Sequence record: DRR723986_10858
Reading direction: 5' to 3' (one strand)
DNA length: 35,192 bases
The notes under the pieces are model-generated. The model saw only the letters and a list, made by a program, of their open reading frames with translations, did not search any database and was not told the DNA's origin. How positions within the stretch are numbered: the stretch's first letter is position 1; each line of letters begins with the position of its first letter. Made by a program: the position numbers and the translations under genes. This document shows positions 1-34,908 of this stretch, piece by piece.

Positions 1-242
1 CCCCCGCACTTCGTTTGCTGCCTGGCTTATGTTAATCATGTTTGGCACTGAATTTTCAATTATCAGCCTGTGAAGCAAGACATACAACAGTTGAGCCTTG
101 AGGAGCGGAATTAGAATTAGAGATTAGAGCAGTTCATTTGTGATTCGAGCCTGACCAGTTCCGGACAGTCTCGGAGACTGTTAACTTTTGACCCGGTGCA
201 AAACAAGAAGCTCATAAAGCCAGCTGCAAGGCAGCGCTGCAA
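1..242 (+). repeat. Copy A of ~305-bp dispersed non-coding element (left end cut by the window edge)
   Basis: Colinear with ~30140-30377: shared CGTTT..TGGC..ATGTTTGGCA.TG, AGCAAGACATA, CATTTGTG, TTTT.ACCCGG and terminal AAAC..TCA.AAAGC.AGCTGC...GCAGCGCTGCAA. Confidence 0.8.
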
Positions 243-453
243 TGGTTTGTGGCCGCACGGGAAGGAAGATTTAGATCACTAGTAAACTGTTTGCATCTGC
301 TTTATTCTGCGAATACAATGACAGAATGGGATGCTGCCAGGAATGAATAGGCCGGCCATTGAAACCCAGGCGACACACCTTGACTAACACATGTTAACAT
401 CTTGAATCTTCCCTTCTATTGGAATTAAATGGCCCCATGAATATTTTAGTGTT

Positions 454-2193
454 ATGGACATTCAACTGGACAAAAAACCGTCTGAACGCGCCCGGCTGGA
501 AATAGAAGCAACACTCAAAGATTTCCGCAAGTGTACGAATGATGAAGAACGACTGCACTTCCTCAATACGGACGGCAAAACACTGCCAAACCTGAATCCG
601 CATGTTTATATCTCACTGGCTGAAGAGATACTTGCGCGGCATGACGGCCATTCGCATCTGGGCTTGATTGGAAGAGTTACATATCGCAGCGGAATAGCAC
701 AGGGGCAAGTTCTCGACGTTTCATCCGCACTGAAGAACCTCGAATCGGCGCGCAGAATCGCCATTGAACTCAAAGATCAGGTACTGCTCAATGCGGCAAG
801 TGAAGGTTTGGCAGAGACTCAGGTCTACAATGGATTGGCTAAGAAGGGACTGGAAACACTACTATCGGCCCGTCGGTCCTATGGTGAGTTTCCAGATACA
901 AGGCATGAATTCGAACGGCGCATGAGTTCGAGTATGATAGCCGCGACTGCATATATAATGACAGGTCAGCTGGTAGAAGCAATGCAGGAGATGTTCACAT
1001 TTGTCGACATAGCACGCAAGCGCGGCACAGATCGAAAGCCTTACAATATCCAGAGCCACCTGGCAATGATGTATACCTTCCTGGGTGAATTCGACAAAGC
1101 CGAGCGTTTCTTTGAGTTGGAAATAGGCCTGGCACGTGCTTCCAAGTACAGACGATCCATCTCCAACCAATTGAGCCATATGGCATGGATGCGCTGCCAA
1201 AATGGGCAAACTGATTCGCTGACGGAAACTCTCATTCAGGAAGCACTTTCTGTTTCAAGAGAGATGCAGGATCCGCGCATGACGCTCACAGCAGAGGGAA
1301 TTTATGCACAATATCTTTCGCAGGCGGGGCAGTTGGAAGCAGCACATACACTCTCCGTAGCAACCGTGGACAAGTGTAGAAAATACAATATGCCTTTTTC
1401 CCTGAGCAGCGCGCTCGCACGCCTTGCCCGTATCGAATACCTCAAGGGAAAACTTGATGCCGCCAAACAAAGTGCCGAGGACTCTCTGGCTCTGGCGCAA
1501 GAACAGGGTTATCAGTTTTATGAAATAGAAAATATCGAGATTCTTAAGCAGATTGCGGTTGCCAATCAAAATTTCGAACAGGCCCTCGTCCTGAGTGAAA
1601 AACACACTGACTTGCAACGAGCTTTTTTGGCACAGCGTGCCGATGCAAAGTTTCGGGAGCTGGAAACAGCTATCAACTCTGAGCTTGCAGAGCAACAATT
1701 AATGCTCGAATTAAAACGGACCGAATCTCTGCAGGATCAGTCTGCAAAACTTCAAATGGAACGCGACAGCATCCGCCAGCAGCTGATTGCCAAAACAACA
1801 CACAATGCGGCAAAAAATGAACTCCTGCAGGATTCGCGGCGCCTCATAAAAAAAGCTGCCAGATCGGCCGAAGCCGAACTCAAAACATCACTCAGGGACC
1901 TGGCGCGCAAGATTGATTTGCACCTGGATGAGGACAACCTTTGGAAAGAGTTTGACGAGCAGTTTGCTTTAGTGCATCCCGGATTTCAGGAAACGCTGCG
2001 GCGCAAATTCACCGAACTCTCAAACACTGAGCGCAAAGTCTGCGCGTTGCTGCGCCTGGAGATTCCCTCCAAAGATGTATGCCGCATTCTGGGTATCGGT
2101 GTGCGCGGTATTGAATCACACCGCTATAATATCCGCAAGAAAATCGGTGTCAAGGGCAAAGTCCAGCTTAGTGAAGTTTTGGCCAACATTTGA
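454..2193 (+). CDS. TPR-repeat, LuxR-type HTH transcriptional regulator
   Basis: 579-aa ORF with helical TPR-like repeats and a coiled coil. C-terminal LSNTERKVCALLRLEIPSKDVCRILGIGVRGIESHRYNIRKK is a LuxR/GerE-type HTH, preceded by WKEFDEQFALVHPGF typical of FCB regulators. Confidence 0.9.
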   Translation: MDIQLDKKPSERARLEIEATLKDFRKCTNDEERLHFLNTDGKTLPNLNPHVYISLAEEILARHDGHSHLGLIGRVTYRSGIAQGQVLDVSSALKNLESARRIAIELKDQVLLNAASEGLAETQVYNGLAKKGLETLLSARRSYGEFPDTRHEFERRMSSSMIAATAYIMTGQLVEAMQEMFTFVDIARKRGTDRKPYNIQSHLAMMYTFLGEFDKAERFFELEIGLARASKYRRSISNQLSHMAWMRCQNGQTDSLTETLIQEALSVSREMQDPRMTLTAEGIYAQYLSQAGQLEAAHTLSVATVDKCRKYNMPFSLSSALARLARIEYLKGKLDAAKQSAEDSLALAQEQGYQFYEIENIEILKQIAVANQNFEQALVLSEKHTDLQRAFLAQRADAKFRELETAINSELAEQQLMLELKRTESLQDQSAKLQMERDSIRQQLIAKTTHNAAKNELLQDSRRLIKKAARSAEAELKTSLRDLARKIDLHLDEDNLWKEFDEQFALVHPGFQETLRRKFTELSNTERKVCALLRLEIPSKDVCRILGIGVRGIESHRYNIRKKIGVKGKVQLSEVLANI

Positions 2194-2584
2194 TGTAAAA
2201 ATCGGAAAACCGACCATTTTCCGTAGTTTTTCAGTAGTGCATTCAGCAGCACATTTAGCCATATTTGTACTGTCATTAGCTCGGCCCGTAAGCGGCTCTA
2301 CGTCTGGTTTCAGACACTGGTTCGCCGGCCTGTTTCATCGTCCGGAGGGAGAACTCTGCCAGAGATCCACTGCGAATTTTTGCAGATAAAAACAGCGGCA
2401 GAGTTCACACAGAAACCCTTGAATTTTCGGCCTTGAACAACACGTTTGTTAAGTGATGAACAATGTGCTATGCACATTGCAGGAATTCCTTTATCCACTT
2501 AAACATACAATCCACTCAAACCGAAGTGGAGCGGGTGAGCTATGCCAAAACTATTCGATCAACGCATAACTTTCAGAGGACTGT

Positions 2585-6823: not shown

Positions 6824-6840
6824 TCGAATCGAACGCAGCT

Positions 6841-6867
6841 ATGGGGTGTGATCTGTGCGCACCCCAT
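6841..6867 (+). other. Stem-loop just after the stop codon
   Basis: ATGGGGTG...CACCCCAT inverted repeat. Confidence 0.5.
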
Positions 6868-6974
6868 GGCATGTGTTCCTCTGTTCTGCGAACCGACTTA
6901 CAGTACAAGAATCCGCATGCAATTTCTGAATCAACTATTTGGGCACATTTGGTGATTCGGAGATTGCGTCTTCG

Positions 6975-7012
6975 GTCCGGAAAGTTAACCATCTTCCGGA
7001 CTTTTTGTTTTT
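6975..7012 (+). terminator. Rho-independent terminator
   Basis: GTCCGGAA...TTCCGGAC stem followed by TTTTTGTTTTT, downstream of the 1412-aa gene. Confidence 0.75.
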
Positions 7013-7452
7013 AACATTTGCGTACTAGTTTATTTTGCAGCAAGACTTTAACTGCCTTGAGGAAGAGCACTTCGCTCCTGCATTCGCCTGACGGCATCAC
7101 TTGTAGCTTGTTTTTTTCTTTTGTTAGTTTGTGTGTTGTCCACTGTTAGGCTGGATTCCGCTGTTGAGTCCCTCACAGAATAGTTTTAATGCACGTTTCG
7201 AAACAACGAGTATCCGCGCTTCGATCACGGTAATCTATGCTGTAACATTCAAGTCAGGCGGGTGGAGCAAACCAGGTCCCGTCACGCATATTCAAGGCTG
7301 GGAACAGTGCTTCAAAGGTCGGCTGGCCCAACAGTTTATGTACGCCAAGTAGGCTTGTAAGGACGACTGCCGTCACCAACAACTGAAGGAGTGATCCTGC
7401 TGTATAGCTGAACTCGCACATCGCAGGTGTTAATGCCAGAACCTTCTAATGA

Positions 7453-7761
7453 AATTTCGGAACCAGCGAATCCAACATCGAAGCATTCTTTAGCCCCGAA
7501 GGTTCATTCAGAGTTGGCGGATCAATCGGAGGGCGCGTCTGGGTGTACAACCAACCCAAGCGCTGGGGTGTTGCTCCTTTTGGTATAGGGTTTACAGTTG
7601 CTAATCACCCAATCCAGAACCTGCCATACTGCAATTCCAATGCCTGGGCAGGTGCCTACAGTACAGAAAACACTCTGTTAATGACCGGTGTGTGTTTATA
7701 TGTTAACACTGAAGGTGTGTTTCTGACAATGATTCTGGGCGCACTCACCTTCAAACAGTAA
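7453..7761 (+). pseudogene. Possible decayed gene remnant (beta-rich, weakly avidin-like C-terminus)
   Basis: Frame open 7453-7761 after tandem TAA TGA; no convincing start or SD; protein-like text FGIGFTVA..NSNAWAGAY..TMILGALTFKQ. Confidence 0.25.
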
Positions 7762-8020
7762 GTGAAAATCTGGCGGCGGAGAAAACGCCGGTTCAGGCTT
7801 TGACACAAGAATTCTGCTAAAATCAGCGCCGCTCAGATCATTGACCTGAGCGAGGTTTGTATTTTTATGCTAATGCCAGTGAGTGGCAATAATCTCGCTA
7901 GTTTCTATCGCACAATCCGGGAACTCTCCAACACTGGAAATGCATCATCTGGCTTTTCGCCCCAAATAGCGTTTCAAATCGTTGACTTGCAAGACTGATG
8001 TTGTTAATAGGCTTTCCGGG

Positions 8021-8156
8021 TTGCAGCGCCACCTCTGCTGATTCGGCGGCTTGCTTCTTGATGTTTGAGCGCTGCAGCCCTCTCACTCAGTTTGTTACTT
8101 CGTTTGGTGCTTGGCGTGTTTTTGTCATGCTAGTTTTTGAGATCAAGCTCCCAAGC
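8021..8156 (+). repeat. Copy B (left part) of the ~305-bp element
   Basis: TTGCAGCGCC..GATTC.G.GGCT.GCTTCTTGATGTTTGAGCGCTGCAGC matches 30073-30129; continuation matches 1-50 and 34684-34773. Confidence 0.85.
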
Positions 8157-8172
8157 TCTGCGTCACTTAACC

Positions 8173-8213: not shown

Positions 8214-8234
8214 ACTTCAAGCACAGAGTTTCGC

Positions 8235-8687: not shown

Positions 8688-8738
8688 AATACTACCTTGA
8701 GTGTTTAAATTGCACAATATGTTTTTACTGGGGGCATA

Positions 8739-9185: not shown

Positions 9186-9251
9186 TCTAGTTCTCCCAAC
9201 AAAGTGTAATAAAACTCTTTTTATTCATGTTTTTTTGAGCAGAAAACCCGC

Positions 9252-9695: not shown

Positions 9696-9938
9696 AAATT
9701 CCTCCTTGGAACTTCAACTATCTGTTGGACATACCTCACCCGGCACCCACCGGATAGAGGTGTTCTAGTAACTATTATGATTTATGTTGTTTAGTCAGTC
9801 TGCAGAATTGGATGCTGCCGGCTCTGAATCGGCTCCGTACTGTTAGTTGAGCGATGTTAAGCAACGCAGTTTCACGAGACAACATCAGAGCCGGCCGACA
9901 GCGGCCAAGCGGTTCGCACAAAGACGTGCAGAATTGGA

Positions 9939-12761: not shown

Positions 12762-12885
12762 TAAAGCCCAATGTAAGTTCTTACAGTTTTACTTATGAAA
12801 GATTTACGTAGCACATCACCGATACAACTTCTGACTATTGCTCCCTCAATTTGCCAATTTTGGCGCTGATCAACAATTCGAATCT

Positions 12886-12942
12886 CTTCACTCACTGCCA
12901 AACAAAAGAAATCAAAAAGCAAGCTGCCTGGCAGCGCTGCAA
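12886..12942 (+). repeat. Copy C (right end) of the ~305-bp element
   Basis: TTCAC.C...G.CAAACAAAA..A.TCAAAAAGCAAGCTGC...GCAGCGCTGCAA matches ~30323-30377 and ~190-242. Confidence 0.8.
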
Positions 12943-13125
12943 GGTTTGCTAATAGAGACGGAACAACTGAGATTATCCCTCTAAACACAAAAGTCAGGTT
13001 CCGCCGAAAGTACACTCACCATAGTGGCTACTGTATCTCGGCAAAACCTGACTACTGTATTGCGTGTTAACACGAACACGTCAAAGCGGGCTTAACTCGG
13101 CCTCGTGTGTTGTGTTAAGCAGCAT

Positions 13126-25190: not shown

Positions 25191-25203
25191 AGTATTTTTC
25201 TGT

Positions 25204-28200
25204 TTATGTTGGTTGTAGATCTGTTGAAATAGTTTTATTCCCGACTTTGGTCCTTCCGATGATGAAATATGATGAGCCCTCAATTTGGTTGAACCCAGGT
25301 ATTGCAACCTCAAACAACCAATTCCCTGATACTCCATCATACTTACCCGACAACCACTTAGAAATGGGTTTTTCATTTCCAGTTGTCGCGGACTTCTGCA
25401 TTACGATACACTCCTGTATGTAATCGCATTTCCATTTCCCTATTAGCAGTCCGTTAACAGCTTGATACGTCAGAATGTCCCATTGCGGAGGGTTTGGAGG
25501 CAGATATTCATACGGCATTGACACTTTCACACTACCAGGTGTAGACGAGTTCAGATTTGTATCTAGCGCTGTAATACGATAATAATATTTCGTCCCTCCG
25601 ATCAACGAATCATCCACCCAACTCACCTCAGCCGGACGGCTCGCAGGCGCTAAAGTCTCTACAACTGTCTGCACCAATTCCATCGATCGAATATCACGCG
25701 CGTCATCTGCACTCTCCGCCCGATAGACCCGATACTCCTTCAAGTCCGGCTCGCGGTTCGAGGCCCATTTGATCGTAATCTGTTTATCACCACCCAAAGT
25801 CTTGGTGACTTTGGGTTTAAGTGGCGGAACAACATCCGGAAGGCAAATGGGTGGCGTGCTATCACTTGGCGGACCAGTGATGTGCACCGAGTTAACATAT
25901 GCATAGCGATAAAAGTACTTGCTGGTGGTTTTTCCATCCAGGGTATCAACATACGCTCTTAAACTGCTGCTCGGTGAATAGCCCAGATCGTTGTCCGGAC
26001 CAACTTTATCTGCATTTGCAGGTGCATTGGGATCCAATGGCTGGATTGTTAACTGGGCAAAAGCTTCTTCGTTACCTTCCAGATTGGCCAACACCCACAA
26101 TGCCTTGGGGTTTAGACCTTCGTAAATCGGCAGTGCCGCCGCAAAATCTACCGCGCTGTCCAATGGCGCAATGTCCGCTATCACAGCACTCTTTTCAGCC
26201 GAATTATACGATGCCGGAAATGCAGCGTCACCATGCCCTAAAGGCCCGCGCGCAGCCCTTAAGCCCCAATCAATCTGAAACAATGTGTTGTCAACCGCGC
26301 GCAGAATGTGCGTCTTCATGTGTGCTGACGGAATCCAGCGGAAAGTATAAAACGACTCCGCATGGTAGTCTGCAGCCGTTGCCTCAATACACTCCTTCGG
26401 ATAAATCGGCAGGTTTGGCTTTGAAGGCACTTTACGAAACACTCGGAATACCAATGCCGCAGGACTGACCACACTCTCGTTTCCAGTACGATTGCCAAAA
26501 GGTGTTCCATTCCATTTGGCGTCGTCACCCGTCGAGATTTTGTCATCTACAGCCGTAATGCCAACATTAGCGTAGTAGATTGGCGAGCTCTCCGATACAG
26601 GCATCGAAAAGCCGGTTACAGTTCCTGGAGGTGGCGGAAGCAACGGTAGAATCACATCGTAGAAACGAGTTCCGTCAGGCTCCAGCGTATATGAGTTGGC
26701 ATAATCGTTAACATAGATTCGTTCATTCCATTGATTCGCCGCTGCACCACTATTGGGAGAGGCATAACCTGGGTTATAGTAAATTCTAAACTCTTTAGTA
26801 TCAGGAGCAGCGCGCATATGCATGGGTGTCCACCTCCAGGTCACACGCAGGCCTATGGTATCAGGCGGTAGTACAGCTGCTCGCCAGGTGTTATACTTTG
26901 GGTCTTGTACGACGTATGGATCAAACGGATCAAGCGCAAACGCTTCGATTGCAGTCGGAACCGGCGGCGGCGTTTTATCGCGCAAATCAACCGCATAGTT
27001 GTTTTTGATGTTGTTTAACAATCCCGGAACGTAGTACCAGGGCTCTGGATTCGGCACAGGCTGCCACTGCTTCCACATGGCGGGAGCACTGAACTCTGTC
27101 CAGCGTCCAAAAATGTCGATACCAGTGATTCGATAACTGTACCAACCGTCGTCTAATGCACGGTCAATGTAATGCATCACCTCCTGTGGCCAGTCTTTGG
27201 GCCGTTGCAGATTCTGCCCGGGTGTTATCAACGAATCACCAATCAGGACTGGCTGACCATCTGTTAACAAACTGTGCTGATCAATCGCTTCGGGTCCGCT
27301 CGGCGTTGCAATTGCATCACCCAAGCTAGAGCGCCAAACATGGTACAGAACCGGAGACCGCGTTAAAAGGATGTTACCCGAGATACCCAGGTCCCACGTC
27401 AACCCCGCATTGTTAACAGCATTTATCAATGGTGGTATCGCCTGCGGATTGTGGTCCGGCACCATCATTCCCGGCAAGTTGTACCCAACCGGATTATCCG
27501 GCGCGCTCAATGCCGCATGCTGTTCCATTTGTGCACAGGGAAGGATATAGGCCTCGACATCATCAAAACCCTTGTTTGCAATCCAACCCGCCGGGTCATT
27601 CTCGTCGACCTTGCCGCGATAGTCGGCAACAATCAGGTAGTCATACGCTACGTTTAACTGCGTGGAGTCATCGTAGTAATACAGCCCCAACATCTGGGCA
27701 AAATCGACATCTACTGTGCTCAGAGCCAGATAATCGAGATGAAAACGCTCCTGCATCGTCGGTTCGTCGCTTGCCGCTACAGGCACCGAAACACCCTGCT
27801 CAAAAGTGGATTTCTGGAACATTGGAGTGCCGCCCGGTCCGCCTGCTACAATAGCCTCCAGCTCATCATGCAGTTTGCTAAAGTTGTCGTTAAACCACGT
27901 GTTGTCTTTTGTACCGTCCAGTTCACGCGATTCTGCCAGGGCACGTGCCGCCGCTTCATCCCGCGGCATCGATACACAGGGATAATCAGGATGATACACT
28001 GGTAGACTGAAAGGCTGACAGCTGTTGGCCCAGTCACTGGGGTTTGTTGTACAGTTGGGTACTAATTGCCAGCCTGTTCTGGAATCCTGCGAAACATTGT
28101 TACAACAAACCTGACGCAGCCTTGCCGGGCCCGGGTTCCAGAGCACGCTGTTAAATTCAGATAGATCATACTTAAACAATTTGACTTCACCCGACAATCC

Positions 28201-29106
28201 CTCAACCGTCTCCTCGTAGACCTTGTGTTCGCCGCTGTATACACTGACATGGACTTCGTGTGTTTCGCCATTCACATCGATGACATTGTACTTAACACTG
28301 TCCAGAAGCTGCTCCGAATCACCTGGCAAGACATGTACTGAAACGATGTCTTCCCCGGCAAGTCCAAGCGATTCCAATTCACCCGTGCCTTGTAATGTCA
28401 TCGACGCAACAATTTCTTCACTCGAGTTTTTGGCAAGCACGGTTCCCGGCGCATCACCGGCCAGGAGTGTTAGCTCAACGTAGTTAACCGGATCCGGTAG
28501 GGTCACTGCAACTTCTTCTCTGCAGACCAGTGTGCTGCGCGAGTCAAACTCCTTAATTTCAACCGTGGCGACAGGCTGTCCATCGCCATCCAGGGCCGTA
28601 AATGTTAACTCAGCGGAAGTTAGTGGGTTGTCATACTCGTCTTCCGGATAATCACTGAAATCGACAGTCTCACTGGTTAAGCCGTCTCCAACGAACGCAA
28701 TTTCGGCTTCAACCTTACGCATTGGTTCGTCGGGTGGATGTGCCATCTTGAGGTATTCGCGTTCTTCCAGACTCATCTCCAGCCAACCATTTGGCGAGAA
28801 TTCGTCCGTAATCACCATATCCTGGTTGCTACTGAAAACACCTACATCATTTTCAAACTCACATACTCCCGTCGACTCAGCGCTGTAGGAATAGCGAAAG
28901 GCTGCCCAGTTATTACAGGGCTCGGGCGTAGAAAGGTGCGTACGGCGAAATAAATAAAAGCCGTACCAGGGAAATCCCAGGTCCTTCTCAAACATCCAGC
29001 GCAGATGGATTCCATTGCCGAGTTTAACCTGAGGAGTATGTTGTGGCGGACTGTCCTGCCAAACTCCTAATGCGATCATTTTTAACTTATCTGTCTGTAA
29101 GGCCAT
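25204..29106 (-). CDS. Fibronectin type III repeat-containing protein, 1300 aa
   Basis: SD GGAG; GIHLRW, YSYRITGIDIFGRWTEFS, DKTPPPVP, DVVPPLKP..ITIKW..EPDLKEYRVYR..YYYRITALD FN3 motifs. Confidence 0.85.
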   Translation of the reverse strand: MALQTDKLKMIALGVWQDSPPQHTPQVKLGNGIHLRWMFEKDLGFPWYGFYLFRRTHLSTPEPCNNWAAFRYSYSAESTGVCEFENDVGVFSSNQDMVITDEFSPNGWLEMSLEEREYLKMAHPPDEPMRKVEAEIAFVGDGLTSETVDFSDYPEDEYDNPLTSAELTFTALDGDGQPVATVEIKEFDSRSTLVCREEVAVTLPDPVNYVELTLLAGDAPGTVLAKNSSEEIVASMTLQGTGELESLGLAGEDIVSVHVLPGDSEQLLDSVKYNVIDVNGETHEVHVSVYSGEHKVYEETVEGLSGEVKLFKYDLSEFNSVLWNPGPARLRQVCCNNVSQDSRTGWQLVPNCTTNPSDWANSCQPFSLPVYHPDYPCVSMPRDEAAARALAESRELDGTKDNTWFNDNFSKLHDELEAIVAGGPGGTPMFQKSTFEQGVSVPVAASDEPTMQERFHLDYLALSTVDVDFAQMLGLYYYDDSTQLNVAYDYLIVADYRGKVDENDPAGWIANKGFDDVEAYILPCAQMEQHAALSAPDNPVGYNLPGMMVPDHNPQAIPPLINAVNNAGLTWDLGISGNILLTRSPVLYHVWRSSLGDAIATPSGPEAIDQHSLLTDGQPVLIGDSLITPGQNLQRPKDWPQEVMHYIDRALDDGWYSYRITGIDIFGRWTEFSAPAMWKQWQPVPNPEPWYYVPGLLNNIKNNYAVDLRDKTPPPVPTAIEAFALDPFDPYVVQDPKYNTWRAAVLPPDTIGLRVTWRWTPMHMRAAPDTKEFRIYYNPGYASPNSGAAANQWNERIYVNDYANSYTLEPDGTRFYDVILPLLPPPPGTVTGFSMPVSESSPIYYANVGITAVDDKISTGDDAKWNGTPFGNRTGNESVVSPAALVFRVFRKVPSKPNLPIYPKECIEATAADYHAESFYTFRWIPSAHMKTHILRAVDNTLFQIDWGLRAARGPLGHGDAAFPASYNSAEKSAVIADIAPLDSAVDFAAALPIYEGLNPKALWVLANLEGNEEAFAQLTIQPLDPNAPANADKVGPDNDLGYSPSSSLRAYVDTLDGKTTSKYFYRYAYVNSVHITGPPSDSTPPICLPDVVPPLKPKVTKTLGGDKQITIKWASNREPDLKEYRVYRAESADDARDIRSMELVQTVVETLAPASRPAEVSWVDDSLIGGTKYYYRITALDTNLNSSTPGSVKVSMPYEYLPPNPPQWDILTYQAVNGLLIGKWKCDYIQECIVMQKSATTGNEKPISKWLSGKYDGVSGNWLFEVAIPGFNQIEGSSYFIIGRTKVGNKTISTDLQPT

Positions 29107-29873
29107 GAATTACTCCACGGGTTAAATACTTCCTACCAAGGCAGGTCTGAAATTTTTCATTTGGGTAAAGGAATCCCTCGTTCTGTCTGCGGCAATTCTG
29201 GCGAATCACGTGCAGACAGGACATAGAAAGGGTGTGTCACGCATAGATGTTAATCTATGCGGACAGCTGCGGCTAAAGCCGTATGAGTTGTTTAATCAGA
29301 ACATTCAACCGAATGCATTTAACAGAATCAACACTCTGGCCTCAGTGACCAGGGGTAGTCCGCGTAGACGTGGCAGGGGGCAACCGTGAGCGATGTACAG
29401 ACTAGTGGGTTGAGGTTCGATAATGCTCGTGGTTTGCAGCGTCTGTTGATTCGTGCCAATCCAGTATATGGCGGTTTGTTTAATGTGATACGGTTTGTAT
29501 CGACCAGGCAATGTTTCCCAATTGAGGGAAAATGCACTGCCAGTCTTCTCCTTCAACTACTCCTTAATCACATCTATAAATATATCTTGTGTTGTACCCA
29601 GCACGATAAATATTTCCACCAATTCGCGATCAACTGTGTAACTTTTTGGCCCTTGCGGGATTGCAACAGACTGCCGAATTTTTCGCTGGGGTCACAAGGT
29701 AGACAGATGATTTGTTTAACGCAAGCCATATTTACAACTTTTTTCAAGACAGACACTACCGACGTATCAAGAGTTTAAAAAATCAGCCTTAACGTCTTGT
29801 TTTGGGCTATTTGCTCTGTGAAACAGTTCGAATATTTTAGGGGTGATTTTTGGGGAACGATCAAATTTATGGG

Positions 29874-30007
29874 TGACGAATTTTCGACAGGCCTATTAAG
29901 CCTGCAAAGTGCGATTCTGCCAGTCTGGTGCTGACGAATTTTCGTCAGGGATTTTTAACTTTTCAACTAAACATTTTTGCAAAAAGTGGTGACGAATTTT
30001 CGTCAGG
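29874..30007. promoter_or_regulatory. Three palindromic 18-bp repeats with exact 58-bp period (operator-like array)
   Basis: TGACGAATTTTCG(A/T)CAGG starting at 29874, 29932 and 29990; core TGACGAA-TT-TTCGTCA is an inverted repeat. Confidence 0.8.
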
Positions 30008-30072
30008 TTTAACAGTTAAGATTCTTGATTAGAGTCTCAATCCTCTCACTTGTTGTATACTCAAATTCTGCG

Positions 30073-30377
30073 TTGCAGCGCCCCTTCATCGATTCAGTGG
30101 CTCGCTTCTTGATGTTTGAGCGCTGCAGCACCTGCACTTCGCCAAGCTACGTTTAGCGCTTGGCTGTTTTGATTATGTTTGGCATTGTGGCAACAGATTT
30201 AAGTCTTAGAGCAAGACATAAACCTGTTGCGACGTCAGGAACAGAGTGGCTCGTCACAACCCGGTTCGCATTTGTGTGAGTGCGTGCGCGCCATGCCTGC
30301 GTCTCTCAATAACTGAAAGGTTTTCACCCGGCGACAAACAAAAAACTCAAAAAGCAAGCTGCTACGCAGCGCTGCAA
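30073..30377 (+). repeat. Copy D, complete ~305-bp element with inverted termini (MITE-like or structured ncRNA)
   Basis: Starts TTGCAGCGC and ends GCGCTGCAA, with a longer imperfect inverted match (GCTTCTTGA vs TCAAAAAGC); homologous to 1-242, 8021-8156, 12886-12942 and 34684-34908. Confidence 0.85.
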
Positions 30378-30480
30378 TGTATTAGAGCCTACCGCCGGCG
30401 GAACGACCTGAGCCTGTGCGCCAACAGAATGACCTTCCTATACTCATCCACTCCCCGGCAGACCTGCAACGAACCAGCGC

Positions 30481-31473
30481 TTAAATGGCGACTTCATTTG
30501 GACTTGTGCCAATGCTTGTAAAACAGTCCAGATTAAACACCGTAGTCTCAGCAATGTTTGTTAGCGCGGTCTCCGTCAGGAATGCCTGGTGGCTTGTAAT
30601 CAGAACGTTCTTGAAAGTCATCAGCCTGGCAATCGTGTCGTCCTGCAAGATATCCTCGGAGTGGTCCTCAAAAAAGAGTCCCTCTTCCTCTTCGTAGACA
30701 TCCAAACCAAAAGAACCAATATGTTTAATTTTCAGTGCGTCAATCACGGCCTTGGTGTTAACCAGCCCGCCACGGCTTGTATTAATCAACATCACTCCCG
30801 GCTTCATTTTTTGGATGCGTTCCCGGTCGATAATGTAGCGTGTATCTTCCGTCAGAGGGACTTGCAGGGTGATGATGTCGGCACGCGCACACAAAGAATC
30901 GCAGCTGGTATATTCAACGTCATACTTTGTACACAGTTCGGAATCTTCGAACTTATCATAGGCCAGAACCTTGCAGCCAAATCCATGCAGAATTTTAACC
31001 AACACGCGTCCAATCTTTCCCGTACCGATGATTCCGACCGTTGTTCCATTTAAGTCAAAACCCACCAATCCATCGAGCGAAAAGTTAAGATCCATCACAC
31101 GGTTGTGCGCCCGAATGAGTTTGCGGTTAAGTGCCAAAATCAGCGCTACCGTATGTTCGGCAATTGCATAGGGCGAATAGGCCGGAACGCGCGCCACCGA
31201 CATCCCCAGCTCAGCGGCTTTGTGCAGGTCAACATGGTTAAATCCCGCCGAACGCAATGCCAGATACTTAACTCCATGCTCGTGAAGCTTCTGCAGCACC
31301 TCAGCCCCGGCATCGTCACCGGCAAAAATACACACAGCCTCACAGCCCTCGGCAAGAGCCGCAGTCGTGAGCGAAAGTCGCGCTTCAATAAATTTCAACT
31401 CGTGCTTAATAGCGTTTGCTCGTAACAGATACGGCTTCTCAAATTTGTGTATGCTGAATACGGCTACTTTCAT
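30481..31473 (-). CDS. ldhA: D-lactate dehydrogenase (D-2-hydroxyacid dehydrogenase)
   Basis: ALRSAGFNHVD, RVPAYSPYAIAEH, GIIGTGKIG, INTSRGGL, LDVYEEEEGLFFED and NVLITSHQAFLT motifs. Confidence 0.95.
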   Translation of the reverse strand: MKVAVFSIHKFEKPYLLRANAIKHELKFIEARLSLTTAALAEGCEAVCIFAGDDAGAEVLQKLHEHGVKYLALRSAGFNHVDLHKAAELGMSVARVPAYSPYAIAEHTVALILALNRKLIRAHNRVMDLNFSLDGLVGFDLNGTTVGIIGTGKIGRVLVKILHGFGCKVLAYDKFEDSELCTKYDVEYTSCDSLCARADIITLQVPLTEDTRYIIDRERIQKMKPGVMLINTSRGGLVNTKAVIDALKIKHIGSFGLDVYEEEEGLFFEDHSEDILQDDTIARLMTFKNVLITSHQAFLTETALTNIAETTVFNLDCFTSIGTSPNEVAI

Positions 31474-31838
31474 TCTGTGGCGTCCTTAACATTTTGTTAA
31501 CAAAATGGCATATCCTGAATCAACTGTGAGCAGCAGCGCGGTGTCAAGAACCGTGAAATTTGGCAGCTGTTCATCAATTGAGAACTAAGATAGGTAGTAG
31601 GTCATTTAAAGACTATAAGGCCGCTCATATTTGGATATGACTTTGGTCAGGTTTGGACGCTAAATTCGCCCTAACGAAGTCACCATTGATGCCAAACTCT
31701 CAGCTCTGGACTGCGTAAAAGGGAAACCTATTTTTGGCGGCGGAGAAACGCGTTTATTCCTATCAAATAACTTCTGTCAACACACTGTCGGGGGACTCTA
31801 AAACAGTTCTTTTGCGATATATGGTTTCCGTGCCTAAA

Positions 31839-32864
31839 CTATTCCGTATCCTCATACATATAGGTTTTAAATGGCCGATGCCCAGTCCACAATCCGTCTT
31901 TTTTTTGCGCATACGTCCGGCAGGTTGTCACCATTTTTGTTTCAGATCCAAACCGTAGGTATTCAGTTCTCAACTCACTCCTTGCGTTAACAGCGGCTTG
32001 ACCTACGCCATTGGTTGCCAACAGAAGAGCACCGTCACGCCCTTCCCTCACTGACACATCAAGGATCCTTTGAACTTCTTTGACACCTGGACGTTGCTTG
32101 CTCCAATGCTTTATTTCCACGTTGTAAACGGCAAGCCCATCAATAGTAAAGTCAGCAACAATCAAATCTTTGCCGCCATCTTGCGCACTTTGCGTCAAAT
32201 GTACAGCATAGCCTAACTCCGTTAGCACAAGTGACATAAGGCGCTCCAAGTCTCTCCACTCGACCTGCCTCAAACTCGCTTCCGCCCGACCAATTGCAAG
32301 CGCAACTTTTTCAATCATATCTAGAACAAATTTGACGACTATATCCAATTCGGTCAAATCACTTGTCAATAGCTTTTCCAAGCGAGACCGAACGTCTTCA
32401 AAACTCCAAAGCTCGAGACGTGGGCCGGCAGAGCGCAATACCTTGGAACTAACATTCCAGTCAAAACCAGCTGGAGTGACCATTAGGACACGCGTTGGAT
32501 CTTGAGGTGCTAGAGTACTAACATGGTTTATTAGCGCTCCAGGGATCAAAGTACGCGGCTTGTTGTCACGAGAAAACTTGTAATCAATCAGGATACGATC
32601 GTCTCCACCGACAATATTTTCGGCAACTAAATCAAACCGGATCCCATCCTTCTCTAGTGCTTCTGTCTTGAGTTTATAACCAGATAGCGCAAAAAGAGGC
32701 TGCATTATTAAGGATATTGCATGTTCACTGACTTTATCTCCAGCATCTTTGTGTTTGTCCAACGCTGCGAGACACTCTCTAACAATCCGGTTTCGAGCAT
32801 CGGGAGCAAGTGACATTGCTTGCTTGCCTGTCAATGAGGCGCGTGTAAACTCATCGCGTAACAT
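31839..32864 (-). CDS. Mrr-like restriction endonuclease with two PD-(D/E)xK domains
   Basis: C-terminal WRDLERLM..VL..LGY.V.LT..AQDGGKDL...VEIK; N-terminal LF..SGY...RFDLVA...LIDYK...LMVT...LELW; SD AGAGG. Confidence 0.8.
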   Translation of the reverse strand: MLRDEFTRASLTGKQAMSLAPDARNRIVRECLAALDKHKDAGDKVSEHAISLIMQPLFALSGYKLKTEALEKDGIRFDLVAENIVGGDDRILIDYKFSRDNKPRTLIPGALINHVSTLAPQDPTRVLMVTPAGFDWNVSSKVLRSAGPRLELWSFEDVRSRLEKLLTSDLTELDIVVKFVLDMIEKVALAIGRAEASLRQVEWRDLERLMSLVLTELGYAVHLTQSAQDGGKDLIVADFTIDGLAVYNVEIKHWSKQRPGVKEVQRILDVSVREGRDGALLLATNGVGQAAVNARSELRTEYLRFGSETKMVTTCRTYAQKKDGLWTGHRPFKTYMYEDTE

Positions 32865-32932
32865 CTCGTTCCTCTACTATAGAATTAGACCGGCATCTTG
32901 TACAAACATCAGGTGAGTCTCAATTCTCCCCC

Positions 32933-34450
32933 TCAATGCACATAATGCAGCCGCCCACGCTCATCAGTCTCAAACTTGTAAATATCCCAGCGCTTGGACT
33001 TCGACCGTTGCGCCTCCAGCCGCTGTGTTACAATCATGCGTTCACCGTCACAACGCACGTTAATCATGCCGTAGTTAGCCACCGAACGCTCAATGACTTT
33101 CAGATGTTCGTCTAGGCGCTTGCTCGCGGCACGTTTCTGTTTGGCTGTAGCCTCATCGTCATGAATCACACTCATTTCCTTTTCGATCTTGCCGCGCAGC
33201 TCCCGACGCACCAGGTTCGGGTGTTTAATCGACTCCTTGCCCGAGCGCGCCAATTCAGTCGAAAATATTAAAGGTCTGTCGGAACGGCTGTATTTACCGA
33301 TCATGCCCAAGGTGTCGGGCCGCGGGTGACTGTGTGGTTCATTGTCTCCGCTCGAAATCACGGTCGCCAGCGGATTTGTCGCCTGTAGAAACGTTGTGCT
33401 GACATGTGAACTGCCGTGGTGGCATGCCTTCGCAATATCAACTTCAAAATGTTTACGGCCTTCGTCTACCAGCAGCTGCAAATCACCAATCGTTTTGGGT
33501 CGCGCGTCCAGGCCCGTGTAATGTTCCAGCAGATAATCCTGCGACTTCTCGTTTAAGTCGCCACCCAGTAGCATTTTGATTTTACCGATCTCCAATAATA
33601 AAACAACAGAATGTCCATTTTTTGTCTCGCCGACACTTCCCAGTTTTGGTAGCGCAACTTTGCCATCCGGCAGAATCCGTGGCACGGGCCCCAACACTTT
33701 GAGCGTCATTCCAGCCTTATCGGTCGGTCCGTAACCGGGCAGATACCCAGGATCTTCAACTTCGGGTTTTGCGAGTACACCAATTATATCTTCCACGCGC
33801 CCAGATTCGACGGCCGTTTTTAACATATTTGGATACAGGCGCCGGCCACACCGTGTTTTACTTTTGGTAATGCTTGCCAATTCAGTCTTGGTTTGCACTA
33901 AATCTGTTAAGTATTTTTTACGACCTATTTTCCGTTCAGTACCCAGCGAGCTTTTTCCGCCCTGTACCTGCTCAACGATACTATTGTGGTACAAGGTACC
34001 GACATGTACTTTCTCGTGTTCCAGCAGTGGTTTAAAACCGTTGTAATGGTCTTTATCCGGGTGGCTGACAATAAATGATTCGAACTTAAACCTACGTGCG
34101 AACCGGCCATAACGCCAGCGCAAGAACCGGTACATGTTGTCACCTTCACCGGCATCAATTACTATCGCTTTGTCTTTCATTGTTTGTACATGGCATCCAT
34201 CGCCCTGGCCAATATCAACAAAGTTAACTTCCAGAATCCGATCCGCCTGCAAGTTGTCTTTACGCACCCATCCGCTGCGGCCCCGCGTACGCACTTTAAC
34301 CCAGTTGCCTTTAACTTCTTCAACGCGCGCCCAGTCGCCCCACAAAAGTTCGTTAATAGCGGTTTTGCCGCGTTTAGCCGTGTCCGTTCCCGGGGTTTTA
34401 TACTGCACAGCATTGGGGTAACTTATGTACATGCTTTTGCCGACTTTCAT
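32933..34450 (-). CDS. SH3-like plus ComEC/Rec2-type metallo-beta-lactamase-fold hydrolase
   Basis: FVDIGQGDG, IDAG, SHPDKDH, GGD, KACHHGS and SSGDN..HSHP motifs; N-terminal LLWGDW..GNWVKV...SGWV SH3b-like segment; start could alternatively be 34432. Confidence 0.9.
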   Translation of the reverse strand: MKVGKSMYISYPNAVQYKTPGTDTAKRGKTAINELLWGDWARVEEVKGNWVKVRTRGRSGWVRKDNLQADRILEVNFVDIGQGDGCHVQTMKDKAIVIDAGEGDNMYRFLRWRYGRFARRFKFESFIVSHPDKDHYNGFKPLLEHEKVHVGTLYHNSIVEQVQGGKSSLGTERKIGRKKYLTDLVQTKTELASITKSKTRCGRRLYPNMLKTAVESGRVEDIIGVLAKPEVEDPGYLPGYGPTDKAGMTLKVLGPVPRILPDGKVALPKLGSVGETKNGHSVVLLLEIGKIKMLLGGDLNEKSQDYLLEHYTGLDARPKTIGDLQLLVDEGRKHFEVDIAKACHHGSSHVSTTFLQATNPLATVISSGDNEPHSHPRPDTLGMIGKYSRSDRPLIFSTELARSGKESIKHPNLVRRELRGKIEKEMSVIHDDEATAKQKRAASKRLDEHLKVIERSVANYGMINVRCDGERMIVTQRLEAQRSKSKRWDIYKFETDERGRLHYVH

Positions 34451-34683
34451 AGTGGTACCGCGAATAGTGAATGTTAAATGTAGATTGCCACAATACTATA
34501 TTTTGGTTCACCAAAAATAGGACGAAATGGCGTAATTCAAAATACGGTCAGCACAATTACAGTAAATGGCTGCTTACGTGTTCCCAGGCGGGAGCCCGTT
34601 TTAAGTACGCAGGTATACACTCAGGTCAAATTAATTGCGACCACAATGCTTCAACTTCTTCAGATCATATCACATAACAGGCA

Positions 34684-34908
34684 TGAGCGCTGCGCCCCGG
34701 TCACCTCAGCAGACTTCGGTTTGGTGGCTGGCTGTTTCCTCTTGGTAGTACCGCTGGGCTGCGCACCCCAAGCCTCAATCCCCTGAGAGTTTCAGTCTTT
34801 TTTGCCGATGTGCCGATGTGTCTTTGAGTCTGGAGCAGTATTTGTGTGCTTGCGCCGGATCCAGGGCATTCACGTCTGACGGCGCAGAGTCTTGCCCAAT
34901 TTTCCCGG
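34684..34908 (+). repeat. Copy E (internal fragment) of the ~305-bp element
   Basis: TGAGCGCTGC.GCCC..TCAC.TCAG..ACTTCG.TTTGGTG..TGGC.TGTTT matches ~8066-8121; GAGCAGT.ATTTGTGTG and TTTTCCCGG follow at about the same offsets as in copy D. Confidence 0.7.

What the first reader, a model, noticed from the sequence alone, without database searches (positions are those of the whole stretch)
1..34908. Unannotated ~305-bp non-coding element whose five copies mark the gene-module boundaries
Seen: diverged but colinear, same-orientation copies at 1-242, 8021-8156, 12886-12942, 30073-30377 and 34684-34908. They partition the window into [LuxR + T9SS protein], [paralogue cassette], [giant operon] and [ldhA-Mrr-MBL]. 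No transposase or integrase lies in the window and no target-site duplication is evident. Inference: a recombination or cassette-boundary element (functionally attC- or REP/RIT-like), an old MITE family, or a repeated structured RNA that seeds shuffling of accessory modules.
Basis: partly seen in the sequence, partly recalled or inferred. Interest (0 to 1): 0.8.

Follow-up and report, generated by a model that had tools for sequence, protein, structure and literature searches.

The report
Mosaic of REP-like intergenic hairpin repeats
The "305-bp element" is a cluster of shorter hairpin repeat units that this bacterial lineage keeps in hundreds of copies in the gaps after genes, much like the REP/BIME repeats of E. 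coli, so it is an ordinary kind of feature in an undescribed family and not a cassette-boundary device.

Summary
The repeats are real, but the unit was mis-drawn. The window holds about ten copies of a 50-85 nt unit. Each unit is an A-rich tract, then a short GC stem (AGC / 2-nt bulge / variable hairpin / GCT), then a fixed tail in one of two classes. Only 30067-30383 has the full three-unit mosaic. The other four "copies" share subsets of it. A further unit lies at 7061-7131.

The same family occurs at about 70 copies per Mb in two related MAG genomes, G002 and G006. It was found in no other genome of 254 in their order or 401 in their phylum. It has no match in Rfam, plasmids or phages.

Units are intergenic and enriched between convergent genes. 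They show no strand bias between same-direction genes. Where two lie close, the A-tracts always face each other. Between G002 and G006 they sit at orthologous sites and are better conserved than neighbouring spacer DNA, with changes mostly in loops. No RAYT transposase, target duplication, insertion polymorphism or master copy was found.

Best reading: an old, now fixed REP/BIME-like repeat family kept by selection. It probably acts as a terminator or insulator hairpin at gene ends. The cassette-shuffling idea is not supported. Side note: TGTTAACA is strongly over-represented genome-wide.

The parts
9..64 (-). Class II-like unit ('B module'), cut near the window edge. Read on the + strand it is a hairpin region followed by a T-rich tail.
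   Evidence: Covariance model R1: 15.1 bits, E 0.042. Local alignment to the B module of 30118-30201: z 8.0, 0/500 shuffles.
65..179 (+). Linker ('spacer C'), shared only with 30202-30314.
   Evidence: Local alignment z 7.2, 0/500 shuffles; a 36-nt block is conserved. Also repeat D16.
180..248 (+). Full class I unit: A-rich tract, then AGC / bulge / GCTGC-loop-GCAGC / GCT, then a GCAA tail.
   Evidence: R1 62.4 bits, E 8.8e-13. nhmmer E 5e-10.
7061..7131 (-). It lies 238 nt after the stop (6823) of the + strand T9SS-tail protein gene, in terminator orientation for that gene.
   Evidence: nhmmer with the class II profile built from G002: E 1.1e-5. R1 E 0.21. Alignment to the B module: z 4.8, 0/500.
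8015..8066 (-).
   Evidence: R1 24.5 bits, E 3.2e-4. Its hairpin 8035-8049 plus T-rich tail is flagged terminator-like on the + strand.
8066..8133 (-). Class II-like B module, directly abutting the A module.
   Evidence: Alignment to 30118-30201: z 8.8, 0/500. To 34679-34760: z 8.1. 8111-8133 is flagged terminator-like on the + strand.
12879..12948 (+). Solo class I unit, 178 nt after the stop (13126) of the 3182-aa gene on the - strand, in terminator orientation for that gene.
   Evidence: R1 60.9 bits, E 1.9e-12. 12935-12923 is flagged terminator-like on the - strand.
30067..30117 (-). Class I unit (A module), the left arm of the only complete mosaic.
   Evidence: R1 22.8 bits, E 7.7e-4. nhmmer E 0.0036.
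30118..30201 (-). Class II-like B module with a 7-bp stem (GCCAAGC/GCTTGGC) and a T-rich tail on the + strand.
   Evidence: R1 15.9 bits, E 0.027 for 30154-30201. Significant alignments to the three other B modules.
30202..30314 (+). Linker ('spacer C'), holding an internal hairpin.
   Evidence: Homologous to 65-179. The hairpin appears in both strand folds.
30315..30383 (+). Full class I unit, 98 nt after the stop (30481) of the D-2-hydroxyacid dehydrogenase gene on the - strand, in terminator orientation for that gene. With 30067-30201 it forms an inverted pair with A-tracts facing inward.
   Evidence: R1 69.5 bits, E 2.2e-14. 30370-30358 is flagged terminator-like on the - strand.
34679..34749 (-). 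Class II unit.
   Evidence: nhmmer class II profile: E 6.8e-5. Alignments to B modules: z 8.1 and 6.9, 0/300. The rest of 34750-34908 is not significantly similar to any copy.

Best explanation
**What it is.** The window holds about ten copies of a lineage-specific intergenic repeat unit of 50-85 nt.
- Read from its A-rich end, a unit is an A-rich single-stranded tract, then a 3-bp stem AGC/GCT, then a 2-nt purine bulge. A GC-rich hairpin follows, whose first two pairs are fixed and whose top varies in sequence and length.
- The unit ends in one of two fixed tails. Class I ends in GCGCTGCAA. Class II ends in a GAAGCGCT-type tail.
- Units stand alone, in same-strand tandems, or as inverted pairs whose A-tracts face each other.
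- The '305-bp element' at 30067-30383 is such a mosaic of three units plus a linker. This is the BIME way of building clusters from REP units.

**How it works (inferred).**
- The family spread by an old, now silent copying process and has since been kept in place by selection.
- On the strand where the hairpin precedes the T-rich complement of the A-tract, a unit has the form of an intrinsic terminator. It would stop, or 3'-protect, the transcript of the gene just upstream.
- An inverted pair would stop transcription from both sides without letting the two transcripts overlap.
- Units in the opposite orientation would block antisense read-through or act as mRNA hairpins.

**Shown:** the repeat family, its structure, its copy number, its placement, its pair geometry and its conservation.

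**Inferred:** termination or insulation as the selected function, and past mobility.
For: **Structure.**
- All 45 units folded one by one give the same AGC / bulge / GC-stem / GCT hairpin.
- On 28 aligned class I units, 96.9% of stem cells pair. Pair 51-72 switches between C-G (20), U-A (5) and G-C (1).
- On 38 model-aligned units, 90.2% of cells pair. The covariation score is 0.100 against 0.042 for shuffles, 0/500.

**Copy number and range.**
- 55 nhmmer hits at E<1e-3 in 788,354 nt of G002.
- 173-226 first-look candidates in each of G002 and G006.

**Placement** (my own gene calls).
- A unit lies in 16 of 53 convergent gaps, against 24 of 277 other gaps (odds ratio 4.6, p 8e-5).
- 4 of 55 units overlap a gene call.

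**Pair geometry.**
- 21 of 55 units have a partner within 300 nt on the opposite strand on the A-tract side.
- None has a partner in any of the three other arrangements.
- The nine close pairs have spacers of -12 to 229 nt.

**Terminator form.**
- A generic hairpin-plus-T-tract scan flags 4 of the 10 window units.
- Three window units lie 98-238 nt after a stop codon in the right orientation.
- In G002, the seven solo terminator-oriented units between same-direction genes lie 32-117 nt after the upstream stop. Six of them are 270-1171 nt from the next gene; the seventh is 130 nt.
- 9 of 11 solo units in convergent gaps lie nearer the gene they would terminate.

**Selection.**
- G002 against G006: units are 81.1% identical (732/903) and neighbouring non-unit spacer 67.9% (1412/2081), Fisher p 5.5e-14.
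- Each orthologous site keeps its own hairpin variant, and changes lie mainly in loops.
- The units after two G002 paralogous genes that are 74-76% identical differ at one base across the hairpin and tail.
- The 50-nt core is 86-90% identical between the window (48.6% GC) and G002 (57% GC). Two window proteins find no homologue there.
Against: - **Orientation is not what a dedicated terminator predicts.** Between same-direction genes, 12 units are co-oriented with the genes (A-tract first) and 9 are in terminator orientation.
- **Some units have no gene to terminate.** 5 of 62 divergent gaps hold units. In the window only 3 of 10 units follow a recognisable ORF in terminator orientation.
- **The gene calls are rough.** They come from my own codon-score caller on MAG contigs. 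At least one earlier length-based call was visibly wrong (198629).
- **Strand evidence points the other way.** The A-first strand, not the terminator strand, folds more stably in 39 of 45 units. It also carries 18 G-A/A-G mismatches against 2 C-T. That fits a purine-rich functional strand or mere composition bias.
- **Terminators do not need fixed flanks.** Ordinary terminators do not need a conserved ~25-nt tail and ~10-nt head. The fixed flanks suggest recognition by a protein that I have not identified.
- **Covariation is thin.** The basal stem is nearly invariant, so covariation rests on two pairs.
- **No expression data could be obtained.**
Confidence: 0.6

Rival explanations
1. A still-active selfish non-autonomous element of REPIN or MITE type, whose inverted pair is the replicating unit. 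It would be copied in trans by a transposase encoded elsewhere in the genome, with any effect on transcription incidental.
For: - High copy number.
- A strict inverted-pair geometry, as in REPIN doublets.
- Conserved outer ends that are inverted repeats of each other (TTGCAGCGC ... GCGCTGCAA).
- Both orientations relative to genes.
- Conserved flanks in hundreds of copies imply copying at some time.
Against: - No Y1/RAYT transposase in G002 or G006 by six-frame search: 0 of 2 genomes, while the control rang in 6 of 14 known genomes.
- No transposase or integrase domain in the 16 window ORFs scanned.
- Only one inverted pair in 788 kb has a 0.5-5 kb spacer (2655 nt; three more are 6.5-15.4 kb apart). 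The ORF within it begins like a thiolase, a name read by eye from its first 60 residues, with no family search.
- No gain or loss of single units across about 13 orthologous sites at ~85-91% genome identity.
- No master sequence: hairpins differ between sites and are the same at orthologous sites.
- The two arms of a pair can belong to different classes (L071).
- No target-site duplication seen.
Confidence: 0.17
2. A DNA-level binding site for a lineage-specific or nucleoid-associated protein. The model is gyrase or IHF binding at BIMEs (a recalled example): a site that relieves or insulates supercoiling between genes. The hairpin would matter as a cruciform or only as an inverted repeat.
For: - No strand bias relative to transcription between same-direction genes (12 against 9).
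- Strongest enrichment between convergent genes, where positive supercoils would build up.
- Invariant flanks of about 9-10 nt on each side of a variable stem, which look like protein contacts.
- Conservation across genomes of very different GC content.
Against: - The unit itself is asymmetric.
- Stems keep pairing through double changes, which a plain duplex binding site does not need.
- No candidate protein was identified.
- Nothing here distinguishes this reading from an RNA-level role.
Confidence: 0.13
3. A structured RNA acting on the A-first strand. Examples would be an RNase entry or processing site, or a binding site for an RNA-binding protein in 3' UTRs and operon spacers.
For: - The A-first strand folds better in 39 of 45 units (mean 1.5 kcal/mol).
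- Stems carry G-A/A-G mismatches (18) far more often than C-T (2).
- At least one unit sits inside a ~100-nt spacer between two co-oriented genes (C70 163028).
Against: - About half of the informative units are antisense to the flanking genes.
- No Rfam family matches.
- The z-scores of the composite fold are modest: -1.7 on the + strand and -3.0 on the - strand.
- The strand asymmetry may be only purine-rich composition.
Confidence: 0.07
4. A site-specific recombination or cassette-boundary element (attC-like) that shuffles accessory gene modules.
For: - Units flank blocks of accessory-looking genes in the window.
- Two of four larger indels between G002 and G006 abut a unit.
- A variable hairpin between conserved ends is superficially attC-like.
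Against: - Units lie on both strands and are dispersed at ~70 per Mb rather than in a one-way array.
- No integrase in the window.
- Units are position-stable between G002 and G006.
- The two conserved ends are not complementary to each other as attC R''/R' sites are (the attC feature is recalled; the ends are read).
- Units lie in five of the window's nine gaps longer than 100 nt, so the coincidence with 'boundaries' carries no information.
Confidence: 0.03

Closest known systems
REP elements and their mosaic clusters (BIMEs) of enterobacteria and pseudomonads; tagged REP superfamilies of Di Nocera et al. 2013 (PMC3733652; abstract and passages read)
   Same: - Short GC-rich imperfect hairpins in intergenic DNA at hundreds of copies.
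- Found singly and as close inverted pairs.
- Mostly downstream of genes, between convergent and same-direction ORFs. The paper reports the same placement for REPs.
- Proposed roles in termination, mRNA stabilisation and supercoiling.
- Clusters built as mosaics of unit types and linkers.
   Different: - No GTAG or CGTC tag at the foot of the stem.
- A long conserved A-rich flank is part of the unit.
- The top of the hairpin differs from site to site, where REPs repeat the hairpin itself.
- No RAYT gene found.
- The host lineage looks Bacteroidota-like, not proteobacterial.
REPIN-RAYT systems (Bertels & Rainey 2011, PMC3116915; PMC3337134; search listing and abstract openings only)
   Same: - Inverted doublets in one fixed geometry.
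- Singlets alongside the doublets.
- Vertical persistence in a lineage.
   Different: - No RAYT in either related genome.
- No master sequence or cloud of near-identical copies.
- The arms of a pair can be of different classes.
- Spacers range from -12 to 229 nt.
Intrinsic (Rho-independent) terminators, including the inverted DNA-uptake-sequence pairs that double as terminators in Neisseria (the latter recalled, not checked here)
   Same: - GC hairpin followed by a T-rich tract on one strand.
- Sits 30-240 nt after stop codons.
- Inverted pairs between convergent genes.
   Different: - Ordinary terminators share no ~25-nt tail or ~10-nt head sequence.
- About half of the informative units face the wrong way for the neighbouring gene.
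MITEs such as Correia, ERIC or RUP elements (general features from the abstract opening of PMC3184786; the element names are recalled)
   Same: - The 317-nt composite has inverted terminal arms.
- It lies in intergenic DNA.
- It could carry transcription signals.
   Different: - No target-site duplication.
- No parent IS.
- No insertion polymorphism.
- The 'arms' are independent units that mostly occur alone (33 of 55 in G002 have no partner).

Membership tests
REP / REPIN-RAYT | Short GC-rich imperfect palindrome, intergenic, tens to hundreds of copies per genome | tested here: met
   Hairpin in 45 of 45 units folded. 55 hits in 788 kb. 4 of 55 overlap a gene call.
REP / REPIN-RAYT | Inverted doublets in one fixed arrangement | tested here: met
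   21 of 55 units have a partner on the opposite strand on the A-tract side; 0 in the three other arrangements.
REP / REPIN-RAYT | A RAYT (Y1 transposase, PF01797) gene in the same genome | tested here: not met
   0 of 2 genomes (G002, G006) at E<=1e-3 in six-frame search; the control rang in 6 of 14 known genomes. Both are MAGs, and the window's own genome is not held, so absence is not proven.
REP / REPIN-RAYT | GTAG or CGTC tetranucleotide tag at one end of the stem (Di Nocera 2013, passages read) | tested here: not met
   The invariant columns of alignment A1 next to the stem read AAAGC.AGC and GCGCTGCAA. Neither tag is present.
REP / REPIN-RAYT | Population of near-identical copies around a master sequence | tested here: not met
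   Hairpin tops differ between sites. Near-identical ones are confined to duplicated gene neighbourhoods and to G002/G006 orthologues.
MITE | Terminal inverted repeats with a flanking target-site duplication | tested here: not met
   Inverted arms are present. The bases outside the ends at 30067/30383 and 8015 show no duplication. Tested by eye only.
MITE | A related autonomous IS with the same ends | tested here: not met
   No transposase domain in 16 window ORFs. In 788 kb, only one inverted pair has a 0.5-5 kb spacer. The ORF within it begins like a thiolase, a name read by eye from its first 60 residues. No match in plasmids or phages. ISfinder is not available here.
MITE | Insertion polymorphism between close relatives (filled and empty sites) | tested here: not met
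   10 of 11 G002 units have a unit at the orthologous G006 site; the 11th lies in a G002-only segmental duplication. The 2 weak G006-only hits have 81-84% identical G002 counterparts.
Integron attC site | One-way array at cassette 3' ends beside an intI integrase gene | tested here: not met
   Units lie on both strands and are dispersed. No integrase domain in the window ORFs scanned.
Integron attC site | Complementary R''/L'' and L'/R' core sites with extrahelical bases (feature recalled) | tested here: inconclusive
   The two conserved ends of a unit are not complementary to each other. No attC model was available to run.
Intrinsic terminator | GC-rich hairpin directly followed by a T-rich tract | tested here: met
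   On the strand opposite the A-tract. A generic scan flags 4 of the 10 window units. Hairpin energies are -7 to -17 kcal/mol.
Intrinsic terminator | Lies downstream of, and co-oriented with, a transcription unit | tested here: inconclusive
   3 of 10 window units qualify. In G002, 9 terminator-oriented against 12 opposite between same-direction genes. 9 of 11 solo units in convergent gaps lie nearer the gene they would terminate.
Intrinsic terminator | Transcript 3' ends map to the T-tract | not testable with these tools
   No sequencing run was listed for the window.
Any Rfam RNA family | Match at the family's gathering score | tested here: not met
   0 matches in the window at gathering. 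Only chance-level hits at E<=10 on 29850-30480. 0 at E<=1 on four G002 loci.

The most novel reading that the evidence does not exclude
The fixed ~25-nt A-rich flank and ~10-nt tail, kept nearly unchanged at hundreds of position-stable sites in genomes of 48.6% and 57% GC while the stem between them drifts, may be the recognition signal of a dedicated trans-acting factor. On this reading the family is a lineage-wide, factor-dependent termination, 3'-end-processing or domain-insulation code. It would not be a relic repeat, and no RAYT-type enzyme would be needed to maintain it.
Probability: 0.12. Interest if true: 0.6.

Novelty: new member of a known kind. Interest (0 to 1): 0.3.

Why it matters
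- **For annotation.** The long 'non-coding' gaps of this lineage hold a definable repeat family that can be masked or modelled. The covariance model and profiles built here find it cleanly. Apparent 'elements' bracketing gene blocks should not be read as mobile-island ends.
- **For biology.** This is a REP/BIME-style family outside the Proteobacteria. It has no detectable RAYT, its positions are stable and it shows signs of purifying selection. That adds a case to the open question of whether such repeats persist as replicators or as host-selected signals.
- **Practical use.** If the units terminate transcription, they are compact, orientation-defined parts for a poorly tractable group.

This is not a new kind of system.

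Tried and rejected
**Searches that found nothing**
- Whole genome of the window: none is held. Copy number and synteny in the organism itself therefore could not be measured.
- Metagenome scan with a 23-base pattern from the class I unit: 0 matches. I did not use the second scan that was allowed.
- Sequencing runs for 27000-33000: none was listed, and no RNA holder was listed.
- Rfam: nothing at gathering. The weak RT-6 (E 0.083) and microRNA-family hits near 29929-30236 fall far below their cut-offs.
- Plasmid and phage collections: no match.
- RAYT search: no hit.
- Earlier notes of this scan, searched by sequence and by place: nothing.
- Paper searches for REP/RAYT in Bacteroidetes and for the TGTTAACA motif turned up no description of either. 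That is three searches of an open-access library and does not show they are unpublished. Supplements were not consulted.

**Leads that did not hold**
- G131, the third 'hit' in G002's order, is only an A-tract in 33% GC DNA and not a family member.
- Many of the 40 matches cover only the A-rich tract. The count was redone with profiles.
- A coding reading of the repeat was rejected. Differences between copies are not in 3-nt phase, copies differ by indels, and the shared 'MFERCS' peptide pieces come from the DNA repeat.
- My first, length-based gene calls proved unreliable, so I replaced them with a codon-score caller.
- Using G-U against A-C counts to choose the functional strand gave too few cases: 2 against 0.
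- Two window proteins (505 aa and 886 aa) found no homologue in G002 or G006 with these queries. Window synteny could therefore not be compared.
- The G006-only 1.5-kb insertion beside a unit holds a 497-aa ORF that I did not characterise.

**Not established**
- The taxonomic name of G002/G006 was not obtained. The record is titled only 'bacterium'.

Full report
**1. The observation**

The window is 35,192 nt at 48.6% GC.
- 199-247 / 12899-12947 / 30334-30382 (76-80% identical)
- 177-244 / 30312-30379 (79%)
- 8040-8087 / 30091-30138 (85%)
- 8066-8086 / 30117-30137 / 34684-34704 (81%)
- 74-109 / 30210-30245 (75%)
- 8-40 / 8097-8129 (79%)

blastn of 30050-30400 against the window finds 9-244 (E 3e-17), 8014-8129 (E 6e-16) and 12870-12945 (E 9e-11). 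All are on the + strand. It does not find 34684-34908.

Local alignment against shuffles confirms these matches. It also shows that the fifth stretch matches copies 2 and 4 only over its first ~70 nt (z 8.1 and 6.9, 0/300). Its match to copy 1 is marginal (z 3.7, 1/300) and it has no match to copy 3 (z 0.6).

So the similarity is real, but 'five copies of a 305-bp element' is not the right description.

**2. Anatomy**

The left and right ends of 30067-30383 are inverted repeats of each other. The outer ends read TTGCAGCGC ... GCGCTGCAA, and inside them lie a T-rich and an A-rich tract.

Comparison with related genomes (section 3) showed that each arm is an independent unit. Read from the A-rich side, a unit has these parts:
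- an A-rich tract;
- a 3-bp stem, AGC pairing with GCT;
- a 2-nt purine bulge;
- a GC-rich hairpin whose first pairs are fixed and whose top varies in sequence and length;
- a fixed tail: GCGCTGCAA in class I, a GAAGCGCT-type tail in class II.

All 45 units folded one by one give this hairpin. On 28 aligned class I units, 96.9% of stem cells pair, and one pair alternates between C-G (20), U-A (5) and G-C (1). On 38 model-aligned units, 90.2% of cells pair, and the covariation score is 0.100 against 0.042 for shuffles (0/500). The basal pairs hardly vary, so formal covariation is limited.

A covariance model (R1) and two nhmmer profiles place these units in the window:

| Position | Strand | Type | Support |
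|---|---|---|---|
| 9-64 | - | class II-like B module | R1 E 0.042; alignment to other B modules z 8.0 |
| 180-248 | + | class I, full | R1 E 8.8e-13 |
| 7061-7131 | - | class II | nhmmer E 1.1e-5 |
| 8015-8066 | - | class I, short A-tract | R1 E 3.2e-4 |
| 8066-8133 | - | class II-like B module | alignment to other B modules z 8.8 |
| 12879-12948 | + | class I, full | R1 E 1.9e-12 |
| 30067-30117 | - | class I, short A-tract | R1 E 7.7e-4 |
| 30118-30201 | - | class II-like B module | R1 E 0.027 |
| 30315-30383 | + | class I, full | R1 E 2.2e-14 |
| 34679-34749 | - | class II | nhmmer E 6.8e-5 |

A linker (65-179 and 30202-30314) is shared by copies 1 and 4 only (z 7.2). The complete 'element' is therefore a mosaic of three units and a linker.

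**3. The family outside the window**

No genome is held for the window. Relatives of its D-2-hydroxyacid dehydrogenase are mostly Bacteroidota (best 76% identity). One of them lies in a MAG titled only 'bacterium', here G002, at 72%.
- G002 holds many matches to the unit.
- A relative, G006, holds as many: 2 of 31 genomes searched, with 225 and 226 first-look candidates.
- In G002's order, 3 of 254 genomes matched. The third, G131, is only an A-tract in 33% GC DNA.
- In a sample of its phylum, 1 of 401 genomes matched, namely G002 itself.
- A profile finds 55 units at E<1e-3 in 788,354 nt of G002. That is about 70 per Mb, which extrapolates to roughly 390 per 5.6-Mb genome.
- Rfam, plasmids and phages and a metagenome pattern scan gave nothing.

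The window carries 10 units in 35 kb, which is denser than G002.

The window's organism shares two things with G002: this family, at 86-90% identity over the 50-nt core, and an over-represented oligomer (section 9). Two of its proteins find no homologue in G002 or G006 with these queries. The window's gene content looks Bacteroidota-like: a T9SS sorting tail and nearest Atlas clusters from Bacteroidota.

**4. Placement and geometry in G002**

These figures rest on my own codon-score gene calls; an earlier length-based caller was unreliable.
- Of the 55 units, 4 overlap a called gene and 3 lie at contig edges.
- The other 48 divide into 21 between convergent genes, 6 between divergent genes, 12 between same-direction genes and co-oriented with them, and 9 between same-direction genes in the opposite (terminator) orientation.
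- By region, 16 of 53 convergent gaps hold a unit, against 5 of 62 divergent and 19 of 215 tandem gaps. Convergent against the rest gives an odds ratio of 4.6, p 8e-5.
- The seven solo terminator-oriented units in tandem gaps lie 32-117 nt after the upstream stop. Six of them are 270-1171 nt from the next gene; the seventh is 130 nt.
- 9 of 11 solo units in convergent gaps lie nearer the gene they would terminate.
- Where two units are close, the geometry is fixed. 21 of 55 have a partner on the opposite strand on the A-tract side within 300 nt, and none has a partner in the three other arrangements.
- The nine close pairs have spacers of -12 to 229 nt.
- The window's 30067-30383 obeys the same rule.

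**5. Stability and selection**

G002 and G006 are colinear over about 95 kb at roughly 85-91% identity.
- 10 of the 11 G002 units in that span have a unit at the orthologous G006 site. The 11th lies in a G002-only tandem duplication of a gene plus its unit.
- Two weak G006-only hits have 81-84% identical G002 counterparts.
- So no single unit has been gained or lost.
- Units are 81.1% identical (732/903) between the two genomes, against 67.9% (1412/2081) for the non-unit spacer within 150 nt (p 5.5e-14).
- Each site keeps its own hairpin variant, and differences lie mostly in loops and internal loops.
- In the duplicated G002 segment the genes have diverged to 74-76%, yet the units after them differ at one base across the hairpin and tail.
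- There is no master sequence.

**6. Tests for a mobile element**
- A six-frame search for the RAYT family (PF01797) found nothing in G002 or G006, while the control rang in 6 of 14 known genomes.
- None of the 16 window ORFs scanned has a transposase or integrase domain.
- Only one inverted pair in 788 kb has a 0.5-5 kb spacer (2655 nt; three more are 6.5-15.4 kb apart). The ORF within it begins like a thiolase, a name read by eye from its first 60 residues, with no family search.
- No target duplication is visible.
- The arms of one pair belong to different classes.

**7. How it most likely works**

Hundreds of copies with the same flanks must descend from a copying process. That process now looks silent, and the units look selected.

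On the strand where the hairpin precedes the T-rich tract, a unit has the form of an intrinsic terminator.
- A generic scan flags four of the ten window units.
- Three window units follow a stop codon in the right orientation: 238 nt after 6823, 178 nt after 13126 and 98 nt after 30481.
- The fixed pair geometry is the one that stops convergent transcription from both sides without transcript overlap.

I therefore favour terminator or insulator hairpins of REP/BIME type.

The weak points are these:
- There is no orientation bias between same-direction genes (12 against 9).
- Units occur in divergent gaps.
- Seven window units have no ORF to terminate.
- The flanks are more conserved than a terminator needs.
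- The A-first strand folds better in 39 of 45 units. It carries 18 G-A/A-G mismatches against 2 C-T.

These points keep three rival readings open: a DNA-level protein-binding role, an RNA role on the A-first strand, and a dedicated trans-factor. No expression data could be obtained.

**8. Comparison with known systems**
- **REP/BIME.** The placement (downstream of genes, between convergent and same-direction ORFs), the close inverted pairs and the proposed functions match what Di Nocera et al. describe for REPs (PMC3733652, abstract and passages). The family lacks their GTAG/CGTC tags, and no RAYT was found, so I do not file it as a REP/RAYT member.
- **REPIN.** It resembles REPIN doublets in geometry only (PMC3116915 and PMC3337134, listing and abstract openings).
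- **MITE and attC.** The defining features tested were not met.
- **This scan.** Earlier notes report similar lineage-specific REP/BIME-like families in other phyla. This agrees with reading the case as ordinary.

**9. Seen in passing**
- TGTTAAC occurs 36 times against 4.9 expected (0/100 shuffles).
- TGTTAACA is the window's most over-represented 8-mer.
- In G002, TGTTTAAC and TGTTAAAC are the most over-represented 8-mers: 256 and 244 against 14.5 expected.
- The motif occurs at about 1 per kb in both coding and non-coding DNA. This is a HIP1- or uptake-sequence-like pattern, for which three literature terms found no description.
- Other items are listed in the separate field.

**10. Verdict**

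The feature is real. The unit and copy count were mis-stated, and the cassette-boundary reading is not supported. This is a new family of a known kind.

Noticed in passing
whole window; also G002 contigs C70, C58, C78, C13 (L111-L130, L140-L159): A short palindromic oligomer is strongly over-represented in both coding and non-coding DNA. In the window, TGTTAAC occurs 36 times against 4.9 expected (0/100 shuffles), and TGTTAACA is the top 8-mer. In 788 kb of G002, TGTTTAAC occurs 256 times and TGTTAAAC 244 times, each against 14.5 expected, and the top 10-mers are about 60-fold over. The density is about 1 per kb. This looks like a HIP1- or DNA-uptake-sequence-like iterated motif shared by the two organisms. 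A literature search on three terms found no description.
   Followed up: partly
window 29870-30007: Three copies of an 8-bp inverted repeat with a 2-nt centre (CTGACGAA TT TTCGTCAG; the first copy is imperfect) lie exactly 58 nt apart. They sit 760-900 nt upstream of the start of the 1300-aa gene, between it and the repeat mosaic. They look like operator sites or small hairpins. A weak Rfam RT-6 hit here (E 0.083) falls far below its cut-off.
   Followed up: no
window 6824-8014, 29107-30066, 34451-35192: Three long stretches (about 1.2, 1.0 and 0.74 kb) have no ORF of 80 aa or more on either strand and no Rfam match. Terminator-oriented units at 8015-8133 and 30067-30201 face them, as if something unannotated were transcribed on the + strand.
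   Followed up: partly
window 8235-10385 (- strand): Four tandem paralogous ORFs of 147-160 aa have no Pfam family. A strong classical terminator hairpin follows at 8213-8180.
   Followed up: no
window 13126-22674 (- strand): A 3182-aa ORF has an internal ~564-nt periodic repeat (13.8-17.3 kb). It carries 3-keto-disaccharide hydrolase-type and lectin-like domains. It is followed by 886-aa (beta-helix) and 1300-aa ORFs with no other family match.
   Followed up: no
G002 contig C58 78534-124829 (L126-L129): One open reading frame of about 15,400 aa has a repeat unit 58 nt after its stop.
   Followed up: no
G002 C70 165803-177820 against G006 C36 9122-15540: G002 carries a tandem duplicate of a ~1650-aa gene together with its downstream repeat unit. 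The two gene copies are only 74-76% identical, yet the two units differ at one base across the hairpin and tail.
   Followed up: partly
G006 C33 47829-49369 (L137 7829-9369): A 1.5-kb G006-only insertion holds a 497-aa ORF on the - strand. It lies directly beside a conserved repeat unit, at a site where G002 has a 116-nt spacer.
   Followed up: partly
window 2203-2223: A 21-nt hairpin between the LuxR-type gene and the T9SS-tail protein gene is flagged as terminator-like on both strands. It is not a member of the repeat family.
   Followed up: no
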